A stretch of DNA of 64,000 bases, taken from the NCBI RefSeq assembly GCF_002854065.1, contig NZ_CP024147.1. One strand, 5' to 3'. Each line of letters starts with the position of its first letter. Positions within the stretch are counted from its first letter, which is position 1. This document shows, piece by piece, positions 1 to 3,000 of this stretch. Source of the stretch: Escherichia coli (GTDB taxonomy: Bacteria > Pseudomonadota > Gammaproteobacteria > Enterobacterales > Enterobacteriaceae). The position numbers were made by a program.

Positions 1-3000
1 TAATACGCAGCGCCCCGGCGACGTGAATGTTGGCCGGCAGGTAGCGGTGCAGGGCAGGCATATCCGGTGGCGCGGCGGTCAGTCGCGCCTCTTCGATGGC
101 GAGCGGCCACAGCGTTACATCCTGGCTGCTGCGAAACTGGCAGGCAGTGCTTTCGCCTTCCGGAATGGCGGAGAAAAAGGCCGTGTCGCGCGGGACGGTA
201 AATCCTTTCGCCAGATCGCCTTCTTCCGTATCGGGATGCAACTGCGCCACGCTCATTGAGGGCGTGGGTGTGACGTAATTGGGGCTGACCACTTCCAGCA
301 GGCGCTGGGTGAAACGGGGGAATTCAGCGTCAATTTTTAGCTGCGTGCGGGCGGTCAGGAAGCTGAAGGCCTCGACCATTCGCTCTACATACGGATCGGC
401 AATATCCGTTCCCTGCATGCCCAGCCGGGCGGCGACTTTGGGATGACGGGCGGCAAATTCGGCTCCCGTTTCCCGCAGATAGCTCAGTTCGCGGTTGTAG
501 TATTCCAGTAGCCGTGGATCCATCGGTCTCTCTCTGAATTAAAAAAACGTAATGCGGCTCTGCTCCATATCCAGCGCGCTACGTACCCGGAATGCAGTCG
601 GATACGGCTGCGTGAGGATCTCGCCGCGAATTTCAAACTGTAATGTGTTATGGCCACTCTGGCGGCGCTCATCCTGAAGTGGGATGATTTGCAGGGTGGA
701 CGCTTTCAGCCGGGGTTCAAACCGGGTGATGGTTCGCAAAATGGCCCTGCGGATATCGTCCCACTTGTGCTCATACAGAAAGCTGCCCGCCAGTGGCGGC
801 AGGCCGTAGTTAAGTACGGATGCTGCCGCGTACGGATAACGTGCAGCATCAATATCATCTTCATGGCTGACGGTGTTGAGCAGAAATGACAAATCCCGGC
901 GGATGATCTCCTTAAGCTGAACCGGGCTGACGCTGATACCGTGGTCGCGTTTCTGGTTTGGGGCGTCGTCACACAGGCGGTCAAACAGCGTGGGCAGCAG
1001 GTGATTGCCTGGACGCTGGCGGGAAGCGCTCACGCGTCGCTTCCTTCAGCGGTGTTAAAGGTACAGGTGGACAAATCCAGCAGGCTGATATCGCCGTGAC
1101 CGGTGAGCCACACCCTCTGACCCAGCGCCTGTACCAGTGTCTCTCCCGGACCGTCCTGCCAGACTGTTTCCCGGCACAGACGCAGGGAGTCGGCAGCCTT
1201 TTCAGAGCCGCTGTAGCGGGGAAACAGCTAGGCACTGTGTGTATCGCCATTGTTCAGGGTGACGTTGACGGGTTTCCAGATCAAATCGATCAGATGCGCA
1301 GGCTGCGGCGATTTCAGCGAACAGATTTGTGAAAACGGCAGCCAGATATATGCTCCGCCCGCGATCAGTTCGAGTACCGGACCGGTACGGGAGTCGCTGT
1401 CGCTAATCCAGTCAAATGCGCCGCCATTCCACTGCCCGGAAGTGTCTGTTATGGCCTCAAGCGCGCGGCTGCGGTGGGTGTCAGCTTCCTGCGCTTCACC
1501 ACGGGCGTTACAGGCGAGGGCGGTCAGCAGATCCTCCATCCAGGCGGGCGGCGGGAGAATAACACCGGGTCGCTGTTCGCCCTGAAAGCAGACGTGGCGG
1601 TATATCTCACAGCGGATCAGCTCGCCAAATACCTGCGCTTCGCGGGTATAATTTGCGTCCATCCGGGCGCATAGCTGGATCTGTTGCAGTGCCCGCGACC
1701 AGTCGCCTGCCACGCAAAATAACTGAAACAGGCTGTGGCGGCTGGAGGCCTGCGCTGGGTGCATCCTGACCTGCAGCTCTGCCATCTGAATGCCCTCCGC
1801 CAGGGAATAATCCCGCAGCAGTGCCGACAAGGTAGTCGGTAGCTTGTTAATGTTTGTCATGAGATATCTCTCCGTGTTGTGCCGGGTTTATCCGGTAATG
1901 GCTGTCAATGCCAATGATGCGATGCTCTTTCCGTGTCAGATCGGGCAGTACGGTGCTATGCGCTGTTTCCGGGGCGTATTCCGGGGAAAGTAAATGCAGG
2001 ATATCAGGGGGAGTCTTTTCGACAGGCCAGGCTGTTTCACCTTCGCCGGTGGCATCCAGTACATTGAGAATAGCGTCAATGCTTAACCCGCCAGTGACCA
2101 TATCCTGCAATGTCTCGGCTTCGGTGACCAGGTCACGCAATGAATCCAGATCCTGCGAGGTGGGCTCTTCGTTAAAGGGAAAAGGATCAGCATGGCGATG
2201 AAGATCTTGTTCGGGAGATAACAACGCCTCGCGGTATTCCTGATAAAGTCGGGTCAGGGCATTCCCTTTTTCCGCACCTTCTCCGGTGGAGGAGGCTCCA
2301 TGAACAGGAATGATATCGAATGGATTTTGTGATGTCAGATGCTGCTGCCTGAACCAATCCAGATCCAGATATTCGGTTATTGCTTCCGACGTGATGGCAG
2401 TCTGCGATATCGTTTTTACTGCGCTCAGGTCCGGAGATGATGGATTGCCATGTACAAGGCACCATGAAGATAACCCCCATTCTATCAGGTCGCCTTCATT
2501 CAGACGCATACGGTGATGAGGTTCCACAATCTGGTCGTTTACCGTACAGCAATATTCGGTAGACTGATTGATAATCCACCATGCTTCTTCGTGGCGGGTC
2601 AGAGTGAGGGCAATCTTTACATCATCATTCACCTTAAAAACAGGAATCCAGGGAGAGGTAACGGTGAAGATAATTTGTGTTCCTTCAGTCGCGTAAATTG
2701 TGTTATCGGCGATCCCGTGCGCCTGTATTTTTTGGAGTCCCCACGTAATATTTGGTTTCATTGTGTATCACTGTGTAGAGTGTTTCTTTCAAAAGAATAA
2801 GTTTTCTAAATTTTTAGATAAGCAATGCTGATCAATTTACTTTATCAATATAAGTTTTCGCGGAAATATATAGTGGTGATTTTTAATTTAATATATTCAT
2901 GGTGTGTATGAAATTGACTTGCTCTATTGAATATCACCATGAAAAAGATACTACCTGCTATATTACATAGTGTTCTGTGATATGCATCATTGTTTCATTC

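What the first reader, a model, noticed from the sequence alone, without database searches (positions are those of the whole stretch)
1030..1860. TagJ-like T6SS gene carries a single in-frame amber codon
The 210-aa ORF ends at TAG (1228-1230), but the same frame continues protein-like for 65 more codons and ends at a TGA overlapping the tssE start, the expected arrangement for translational coupling. A single nonsense mutation in an otherwise intact gene is a third independent inactivating lesion in this T6SS locus.
Basis: partly seen in the sequence, partly recalled or inferred. Interest (0 to 1): 0.4.

Follow-up and report, generated by a model that had tools for sequence, protein, structure and literature searches.

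The report
Amber-stopped tagJ pseudogene, dead T6SS
A type VI secretion accessory gene (tagJ) has been knocked out by one TGG-to-TAG point mutation, inside a secretion gene cluster that had already lost most of its essential genes; this is ordinary gene decay in a Shigella-like E. coli lineage.

Summary
On the minus strand, ATG 1860 opens a 210-codon ORF that ends at TAG (1230-1228). The same frame runs 65 more codons to TGA (1032-1030), which overlaps the tssE GTG start (1033) as GTGA. Intact E. coli TagJ is 276 aa and 831 nt, the same length. The closest intact allele differs at two bases, one of them TGG(Trp211)->TAG. The stop splits the Pfam ImpE domain and would remove about five strands of the C-terminal beta-barrel that helps bind TssB. 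Of 104 complete E. coli genomes carrying this stretch, 103 do not match the TAG version exactly; the seven intact genes I read have TGG. The one exact match (strain CUWW06) is annotated by NCBI as a pseudogene with an "internal stop". The locus is dead regardless: IS2 sits in tssH, and a deletion joins tssH codon ~321 to an Rhs gene, removing tssB, tssC, hcp, tssJ, tssK, tssL, tssM and vgrG. One modest addition: the mutated base is the inner C of a Dcm site (CCAGG->CTAGG), a classic 5-methylcytosine deamination target. The same TAG also occurs in Shigella flexneri on a tagJ allele 19-20 nt away. Whether that reflects two independent hits or one origin is unresolved. Verdict: real and correctly interpreted, but already known in kind and of low interest.

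The parts
1030..1860 (-). tagJ pseudogene (276 codons plus stop, 831 nt, one internal amber)
   Evidence: Translation. Same length as the annotated intact TagJ in L001 and 2 nt different from it. Pfam ImpE. PDB 4UQX.
1228..1860 (-). Remaining 210-aa ORF: TPR-like N-domain plus the first part of the ImpE beta-barrel, ending at TAG
   Evidence: ORF list. ImpE profile positions 1-64 only. In the AF2 model of the intact protein, helices run to residue 136 and strands from residue 142.
1228..1230 (-). Amber codon 211 (TAG; TGG = Trp in intact alleles)
   Evidence: Alignment with PapRG-06-5 and CUWW06. Codon table over 14 loci.
1228..1232 (.). Former Dcm site: + strand CTAGG here, CCAGG in intact alleles. 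The mutated base is 1229 (C->T on the + strand, G->A on the gene strand).
   Evidence: Sequence. Dcm-site analysis of intact tagJ.
1033..1227 (-). Untranslated 65-codon C-terminal remnant of tagJ (second half of the ImpE barrel)
   Evidence: Pfam ImpE positions 69-122, E=3.5e-13. Some gene callers call it as a separate 65-aa ImpE ORF.
1030..1033 (-). GTGA overlap: original tagJ stop (TGA 1032-1030) and tssE start (GTG 1033-1031). An AAGGAAG Shine-Dalgarno-like motif lies upstream.
   Evidence: Sequence. NCBI annotation of the same overlap in L001.
539..1033 (-). tssE (164 aa, intact; gp25-like baseplate protein)
   Evidence: ORF. Pfam GPW_gp25. 98.8% identical to PapRG TssE.
1..523 (-). 5' part of tssF (runs off the window)
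   Evidence: tblastn: TssF aa 1-174, 100% identity.
1847..2761 (-). tagK (304 aa, intact), overlapping the tagJ start by 14 nt
   Evidence: ORF. 100% identical to PapRG TagK.
3094..3208 (+). tssH (clpV) codons 1-38, cut by IS2
   Evidence: tblastn: TssH aa 1-39. Junction sequence.
3209..4539 (-). IS2 (1331 bp) with 5-bp target duplication CGAAC (3204-3208 and 4540-4544)
   Evidence: 99.9% identical to the annotated IS2 of CUWW06, with junctions read directly. Transposase Pfam domains.
4540..7390 (+). tssH codons ~39-321 joined near 5391 to the C-terminal ~40% of an Rhs protein with an AHH nuclease tip. A 10-nt tandem duplication at the junction puts the Rhs part in frame.
   Evidence: blastn and tblastn. 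Junction sequences. Pfam AAA, RHS and AHH.

Best explanation
tagJ is a recently formed pseudogene. A single G->A transition on the gene strand (C1229->T on the + strand) turned Trp211 (TGG) into amber (TAG). Translation now stops after 210 residues. The product keeps the N-terminal TPR-like domain but loses the last 65 residues, roughly five of thirteen predicted strands of the C-terminal ImpE beta-barrel. In P. aeruginosa TagJ/HsiE1, that barrel forms the pocket and groove that bind the TssB N-terminus. The truncated protein is therefore expected to be misfolded and inactive (inferred). The mutation was tolerated because the locus was already non-functional: the deletion that joins tssH to rhs removed tssB, tssC, hcp, tssJ, tssK, tssL, tssM and vgrG, so TagJ had no sheath or ClpV to act on. 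The premature stop also ends translation 195 nt before the tssE start, so the GTGA translational coupling is lost (inferred, and without consequence here). The likely chemical cause is deamination of 5-methylcytosine. The mutated base is the inner C of a Dcm site (CCAGG->CTAGG), the class of site known as a C->T target in E. coli and normally protected by Vsr very-short-patch repair.
For: Shown directly:
- Frame, stop and overlap.
- TGG in 7 intact E. coli tagJ genes read directly (PapRG-06-5, M18, XJ6-3 and three more divergent alleles), against TAG here.
- Only 1 of 104 complete E. coli genomes carrying this 61-mer matches the TAG version exactly.
- NCBI annotates that one (CUWW06) as TagJ pseudogene, 'internal stop'.
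- The Pfam ImpE domain covers aa 146-267 in the intact protein and is split at profile position 64/69.
- Full-length homology to the HsiE1/TagJ structure 4UQX, E=1e-47.
- The AF2 model of the intact protein has pLDDT 91.9. The stop falls in strand 207-212, and strands 232-236, 243-248, 250-253, 256-259 and 265-268 are lost.
- Foerster et al. 2014 (PMC4239648) describe an N-terminal TPR domain plus a 12-stranded ImpE barrel. TssB binds a groove that starts between the barrel and the two preceding helices, and TagJ also binds ClpV1.
- The locus is defunct: no TssB, TssC, Hcp, TssJ, TssK, TssL, TssM, VgrG or TagF anywhere in the 64-kb window. TssH survives only as aa 1-39 and 35-321 of 877. IS2 junctions were read directly.
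- Every TAG-carrying contig that reaches tssH shows a truncated or Rhs-fused tssH.
- Stepwise haplotypes: PapRG (TGG), then +G632A (contigs L027-L032), then +G144T (the window and L003-L011).
- Dcm context: CCTGG at gene positions 629-633. Only 2 of 88 possible single-base nonsense routes in tagJ sit on a Dcm target, and this is one of them.
- Dcm/Vsr background from PMC2715241.
Against: - No expression or protein data exist, so inactivity of the 210-aa product is inferred from structure.
- TagJ is an accessory protein, so even in an intact T6SS its loss might be mild.
- The Dcm explanation is circumstantial. I could not check that the host has active dcm, and an ordinary G->A transition would look the same.
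- The order 'deletion first, then TAG' rests on TAG carriers always having a truncated tssH and on E. coli XJ6-3 having a truncated tssH with TGG. However, XJ6-3's Rhs-side junction differs from the window's, so the two deletions may not be the same event.
Confidence: 0.92

Rival explanations
1. Sequencing or assembly error: the TAG is an artefact and the gene is really intact.
For: It is a single-base difference from an intact allele.
Against: The identical 831-nt allele is found in 8 independently assembled contigs from NCBI, ENA and Logan. The exact 210-aa product is indexed in 68 blocks of the collection. The complete genome CUWW06 carries it too. Sister haplotypes with the same TAG occur in further contigs, and the sister 210-aa product is indexed in 112 blocks.
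Confidence: 0.01
2. Natural two-gene arrangement: a 210-aa TagJ-like protein plus a separate conserved 65-aa gene.
For: Some gene callers report a separate 65-aa ImpE ORF downstream.
Against: The stop cuts through a single Pfam domain and through a predicted beta-strand. Full-length homologues are 262-316 aa and continuous. The seven intact E. coli genes read directly have TGG. The 65-codon piece has no start codon of its own at the junction; its frame simply continues from the amber codon.
Confidence: 0.01
3. The amber is read through (suppressor tRNA or programmed readthrough), so functional full-length TagJ is still made.
For: The downstream 65 codons are still undamaged and the original stop/tssE overlap is intact.
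Against: The intact tail is expected for a recent mutation: the whole 3.1-kb region differs from an intact relative at only 6 positions. The only tRNA in the window is tRNA-Thr(CGT). The stop is not conserved in relatives. TagJ's partners are deleted, so nothing selects for readthrough. The rest of the genome could not be searched for suppressors.
Confidence: 0.02
4. Adaptive inactivation: the same W211* was selected independently in the window lineage and in Shigella flexneri because losing TagJ or the T6SS remnant is advantageous.
For: The same G632A occurs on two tagJ alleles 19-20 nt apart. Flanking sites 1304 and 1165 contradict a simple shared origin. Under uniform mutation, about 20 private S. 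flexneri changes in 2761 nt would rarely hit the same base.
Against: In both lineages the T6SS already lacks core genes, so inactivating an accessory gene should bring no benefit. The Dcm context gives a neutral reason for recurrence. Site 924 partitions the sequences exactly as the TAG does, so one origin followed by one reversion or repair is as parsimonious as two origins.
Confidence: 0.04

Closest known systems
TagJ / HsiE1 of the Pseudomonas aeruginosa H1-T6SS (ImpE family, PF07024; PDB 4UQX/4UQY/4UQZ; Foerster et al. 2014, PMC4239648)
   Same: Homologous over the full length (E=1e-47, residues 11-269 against 6-260). Same TPR-plus-ImpE-barrel architecture in the AF2 model. Same type of cluster: the locus's TssH N-domain is ClpV1-class (4UQW, E=2.7e-40), with the Arg and Asp groove residues aligned.
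   Different: Here the gene is cut at codon 211 of 276. The TssB and ClpV partners are missing or truncated. The mutated Trp211 aligns with Leu in HsiE1, so the residue itself is not universally conserved.
The same allele in E. coli CUWW06 (NZ_CP182139.1, locus tag ACNHKQ_RS05200), annotated 'TagJ, pseudogene, internal stop'
   Same: 100% identical over the shared 813 nt of tagJ, including the TAG. Window 52000-64000 is also 100% identical to this genome.
   Different: In CUWW06 an IS3-family element sits at the 5' end of tagJ, and tagK and the tssH remnant are gone. The window keeps tagK, IS2 in tssH, and the tssH'-Rhs fusion.
Decayed T6SS clusters of Shigella (S. sonnei: De Silva et al. 2024, PMC10924462; S. 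flexneri remnants seen here)
   Same: Multiple independent lesions (premature stops, IS insertions) in T6SS genes of IS-rich Shigella/E. coli lineages. S. flexneri carries the same tagJ TAG plus broken tagK and tssG.
   Different: The S. sonnei paper lists tssM, tssH, tssK, tssC and tssA2 lesions and does not mention tagJ (0 occurrences). The window's locus has lost the whole tssB-to-vgrG arm by deletion.
Dcm (CCWGG) 5-methylcytosine deamination mutations countered by Vsr very-short-patch repair (background in PMC2715241; the lacI amber hotspots of Coulondre et al. 1978 are cited from memory)
   Same: A C->T change at the inner C of CCAGG that creates an amber codon.
   Different: Here it is inferred from sequence context and apparent recurrence only. 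No methylation or mutation-rate data exist for this host.

Membership tests
TagJ / ImpE family (PF07024) | ImpE domain match above Pfam's gathering score | tested here: met
   Intact relative: 138.7 bits against a cut-off of 25. The window's two pieces score 75.5 and 50.1 bits and cover profile positions 1-64 and 69-122.
TagJ / ImpE family (PF07024) | Full-length similarity to the solved TagJ/HsiE1 structure, with an N-terminal TPR domain and a C-terminal beta-barrel | tested here: met
   4UQX, E=1e-47 over residues 11-269. AF2 model pLDDT 91.9, with 7 helices followed by 13 strands.
TagJ / ImpE family (PF07024) | Encoded in a T6SS cluster of the ClpV1 class, next to baseplate genes | tested here: met
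   Gene order is tagK-tagJ-tssE-tssF. The TssH N-domain is closest to ClpV1-N, 4UQW, E=2.7e-40.
TagJ / ImpE family (PF07024) | Uninterrupted reading frame of about 260-310 codons (a functional member) | tested here: not met
   Amber at codon 211. Homologues are 262-316 aa. It is therefore a pseudogene of the family, not a working member.
TagJ / ImpE family (PF07024) | Binds the TssB N-terminus and ClpV | not testable with these tools
   This is a biochemical property. tssB is absent from the window and tssH is truncated.
NCBIfam TagJ model | Match to a curated NCBIfam HMM | tested here: not met
   No NCBIfam hit, even for the intact PapRG protein. The NCBI product name 'TagJ' must come from another rule, so this does not bear on the pseudogene call.
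Dcm-site 5-methylcytosine deamination mutation | The mutated base is the inner C of CCWGG and the change is C->T | tested here: met
   The + strand has CCAGG in intact alleles and CTAGG at 1228-1232 here.
Dcm-site 5-methylcytosine deamination mutation | The host methylates CCWGG (active dcm) | not tested
   Only a 64-kb window is available, and dcm was not located in the related genome.
Dcm-site 5-methylcytosine deamination mutation | Recurrence of the same change in independent lineages | tested here: inconclusive
   The same TAG is found in S. flexneri on an allele 19-20 nt away. Sites 1304 and 1165 conflict with a shared origin, but site 924 agrees with one.
Programmed stop-codon readthrough or recoding | The stop codon is conserved among homologues at that position | tested here: not met
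   103 of 104 E. coli genomes lack the TAG version of the 61-mer. The seven intact genes read directly have TGG, and enterobacterial homologues have Trp.

The most novel reading that the evidence does not exclude
The identical W211* amber arose independently in at least two Shigella/E. coli lineages (the window's lineage and S. flexneri) because codon 211 overlaps a Dcm methylation site. If so, this is a natural example of a 5-methylcytosine hotspot steering which nonsense mutation disables a gene during Shigella-type genome decay.
Probability: 0.45. Interest if true: 0.3.

Novelty: already known. Interest (0 to 1): 0.12.

Why it matters
It matters little by itself. It confirms that this T6SS cluster is a decaying remnant and should not be counted as a functional weapon when genomes of this lineage are scored for T6SS content. 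It also shows that the 210-aa and 65-aa 'ImpE family proteins' deposited in databases for Shigella and E. coli are two halves of one pseudogene. The Dcm context and the shared TAG in S. flexneri would only be a small illustration of mutational hotspots shaping pseudogene formation.

Tried and rejected
- I guessed from memory that the 'Shigella dysenteriae' record holding the exact 210-aa protein was strain BU53M1. The genome announcement gives 4,409,083 bp, not the 4,639,454 bp listed, so I dropped the guess. The source organism remains 'E. coli/Shigella lineage, 100% identical to E. coli CUWW06 over 12 kb'.
- I looked for further independent W211* events among the homologue clusters of 210 and 211 aa (P0056, P0063). 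These turned out to be N-terminally shortened proteins that keep the C-terminus, so they are not truncations at codon 211.
- The NCBIfam scan gave no hit, even for the intact protein.
- The promoter/terminator scan of 500-3300 found fewer promoter-like and no more terminator-like sites than shuffled sequence. It gave no sign of an internal promoter for tssE or a terminator after the amber.
- I tried to decide between independent origin and shared origin of the TAG using flanking SNPs. The region is a recombination mosaic and the local signals conflict, so this stays unresolved.
- I tried to use E. coli XJ6-3 (TGG, truncated tssH) to date the deletion before the TAG. Its Rhs-side junction differs from the window's, so the two deletions may be separate events.

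Full report
**The observation**

On the minus strand an ORF starts at ATG 1860 and ends at TAG 1230-1228 after 210 codons. The same frame stays open for 65 more codons and ends at TGA 1032-1030. That TGA overlaps the GTG (1033-1031) of the next ORF by 4 nt (GTGA). The next ORF is 164 aa, matches Pfam GPW_gp25, and is TssE.

**What the gene is**

The nearest complete relative is E. coli PapRG-06-5. Its annotated TagJ gene is 831 nt (276 aa), the same length as window 1030-1860, with the same 4-nt overlap with tssE and a 14-nt overlap with tagK.

- The window differs from that gene at two bases. One is a missense change (nt 144, L48F). The other is nt 632, which turns TGG into TAG at codon 211.
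- Pfam ImpE (PF07024) covers residues 146-267 of the intact protein at 138.7 bits. The window's two pieces match profile positions 1-64 and 69-122 separately, so the stop cuts a single domain.
- The intact protein aligns over residues 11-269 with the crystal structure of P. aeruginosa TagJ/HsiE1 (4UQX, E=1e-47).
- An AlphaFold2 model built on 39 homologues has pLDDT 91.9. It shows seven helices up to residue 136, followed by 13 strands. The stop falls inside strand 207-212 and removes the five strands after it.
- Foerster et al. 2014 describe HsiE1 as an N-terminal TPR domain plus a 12-stranded 'ImpE fold' barrel. The TssB N-terminus binds a groove that begins in a pocket between the barrel and the two helices before it. 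They also show that TagJ binds ClpV1 (PMC4239648).

I infer, but have not shown, that a protein lacking the last 65 residues cannot close that barrel and is inactive.

**Do relatives have a sense codon?**

Yes.

- All seven intact E. coli tagJ genes I read have TGG. They range from 99.8% to 91.3% identity to the window.
- A 61-nt query centred on the stop matched 104 complete E. coli genomes, and only one matched at 100%.
- That one is strain CUWW06, where NCBI's pipeline annotates the gene as 'TagJ, pseudogene, internal stop'.
- Enterobacterial homologues (Salmonella, Enterobacter, E. marmotae) keep Trp in the motif 'AWLF' and continue to about residue 274-276. More distant homologues are 262-316 aa.

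**It is a real allele, not an error**

The exact 210-aa product is indexed in 68 blocks of the public assembly collection, under both E. coli and Shigella dysenteriae labels. Eight independent contigs carry the identical 831-nt sequence.

The haplotypes form a simple chain:

1. PapRG type, with TGG.
2. The same sequence plus G632A (contigs L027-L032; this product is indexed in 112 blocks).
3. That sequence plus G144T (the window and L003-L011).

**Context: the locus is already dead**

I compared the window with the full PapRG cluster by tblastn.

- The window holds TssF (5' part), TssE, TagJ and TagK.
- TssH is present only as residues 1-39 and 35-321 of 877.
- There is no TssB, TssC, Hcp, TssJ, TssK, TssL, TssM, TagF or VgrG anywhere in the 64 kb.
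- An IS2 (1331 bp, 3209-4539) with a CGAAC target duplication interrupts tssH at codon 39.
- Near 5391, tssH is joined to the C-terminal part of an Rhs gene with an AHH nuclease tip.

All TAG-carrying contigs that reach tssH show a truncated or Rhs-fused tssH. TagJ had therefore most likely already lost its partners when the amber arose, so this looks like neutral decay. The TssH N-domain is of the ClpV1 class (4UQW, E=2.7e-40), the class with which TagJ co-occurs according to Foerster et al.

**Source organism**

Window 52000-64000 is 100% identical to E. coli CUWW06. The next-best E. coli genome is 98.7% identical. That genome region, like the window, is dense in IS1, IS2, IS3 and pseudogenes. 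This is an IS-rich, Shigella-like lineage. I could not name it more precisely.

**Likely mutational mechanism**

On the + strand the intact sequence is CCAGG (1228-1232) and the window has CTAGG. The changed base is the inner C of a Dcm site. Dcm methylates that C, and deamination of 5-methylcytosine gives T. Vsr very-short-patch repair exists to reverse exactly this T:G mismatch in the CTWGG/CCWGG context (PMC2715241). Intact tagJ has three Dcm sites. Of its 88 possible single-base nonsense changes, only two lie on a Dcm target (codons 107 and 211). This fits the sequence context well but is not proven, and I could not check dcm in the host.

**A side observation: the same TAG in Shigella flexneri**

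S. flexneri (for example CP026810 and an NCTC strain) carries the same TAG at codon 211, on a tagJ allele 19-20 nt different from the window's. Its remnant has also lost tagK to a stop at codon 100 and has a split tssG. Over 8.6 kb the two lineages differ by 1.6-1.7%.

The local evidence on origin conflicts:

- Sites 1304 and 1165, which flank the TAG within 139 bp, group the window with TGG-bearing E. coli and against S. flexneri. This argues for two independent hits or a very short transferred patch.
- Site 924 splits the sequences exactly as the TAG does. On the local tree, one origin followed by one reversion or repair is therefore as parsimonious as two origins.
- Under uniform mutation, about 20 private S. 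flexneri changes in 2761 nt would rarely land on the same base.

Something special about this site is likely, and the Dcm/Vsr context is the obvious candidate. The history remains unresolved.

**Consequences for tssE**

The ribosome now stops 195 nt before the tssE start, so the GTGA coupling is lost. tssE has its own AAGGAAG motif upstream, and no promoter or terminator signal stands out. Any polarity is inferred, and it is irrelevant in a cluster without a sheath, tube or membrane complex.

**Verdict**

It is an ordinary pseudogene of a known family, already flagged as such in a public annotation of a near-identical genome. Novelty: already known. Interest: low.

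Noticed in passing
window 5362-5420 (junction) and ORF 4502-7390: The tssH-Rhs junction carries a 10-nt tandem duplication (GCGCTGGTGG) that is absent from intact tssH. It places the Rhs-AHH nuclease part in frame with ClpV residues 1 to ~321. In contigs without the IS2 this reads as one 986-aa Clp_N-AAA-RHS-AHH chimera. E. coli XJ6-3 has a break within 2-3 nt of the same tssH position but a different Rhs-side endpoint. 'ATCCGG' occurs at both junctions, which may indicate microhomology-driven recurrent deletion.
   Followed up: partly
window 7384-7845 (+): A 153-aa ORF lies directly after the Rhs-AHH toxin tip and has no Pfam hit. Its position suggests the cognate immunity gene of an orphan Rhs toxin retained after the T6SS was lost.
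   Followed up: no
L013 8001-8831 and L017 8001-8831 (Shigella flexneri); window 1229: S. flexneri carries the identical TGG->TAG at tagJ codon 211 on an allele 19-20 nt away. It also has a tagK stop at codon 100 and a split tssG. Of its 19-20 private substitutions across the aligned tagK-to-tssF stretch, 14-15 are C>T or G>A.
   Followed up: partly
window 3209-4539; 9311-10573; 42212-42715; 47804-48307; 49873-50376: The window has a high IS load. IS2 sits in tssH. A 1263-bp element is identical to the IS3-family copy next to tagJ in CUWW06. At least three ORFs of 167 aa lie at positions where CUWW06 has annotated IS1 copies nearby. CUWW06 and the window differ in IS placement at the T6SS remnant although their flanking sequence is 100% identical.
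   Followed up: partly
window 36913-36988 and about 37000-50000: tRNA-Thr(CGT) lies at 36913-36988. In the matching region of CUWW06 the tRNA is followed by a tyrosine integrase with P4-type primase genes and a degraded lambdoid prophage (bet, exo, gam, rusA, Q) broken by IS1 and IS2. I did not check whether the window has the same content.
   Followed up: no
databases (proteins P0001-P0015; 65-aa ORFs in L003, L006, L028, L029, L031): The two halves of this pseudogene are deposited as separate 'impE family protein' or 'SciE protein' entries of 210 aa and 65 aa for Shigella and E. coli. This could inflate counts of TagJ-like genes.
   Followed up: no
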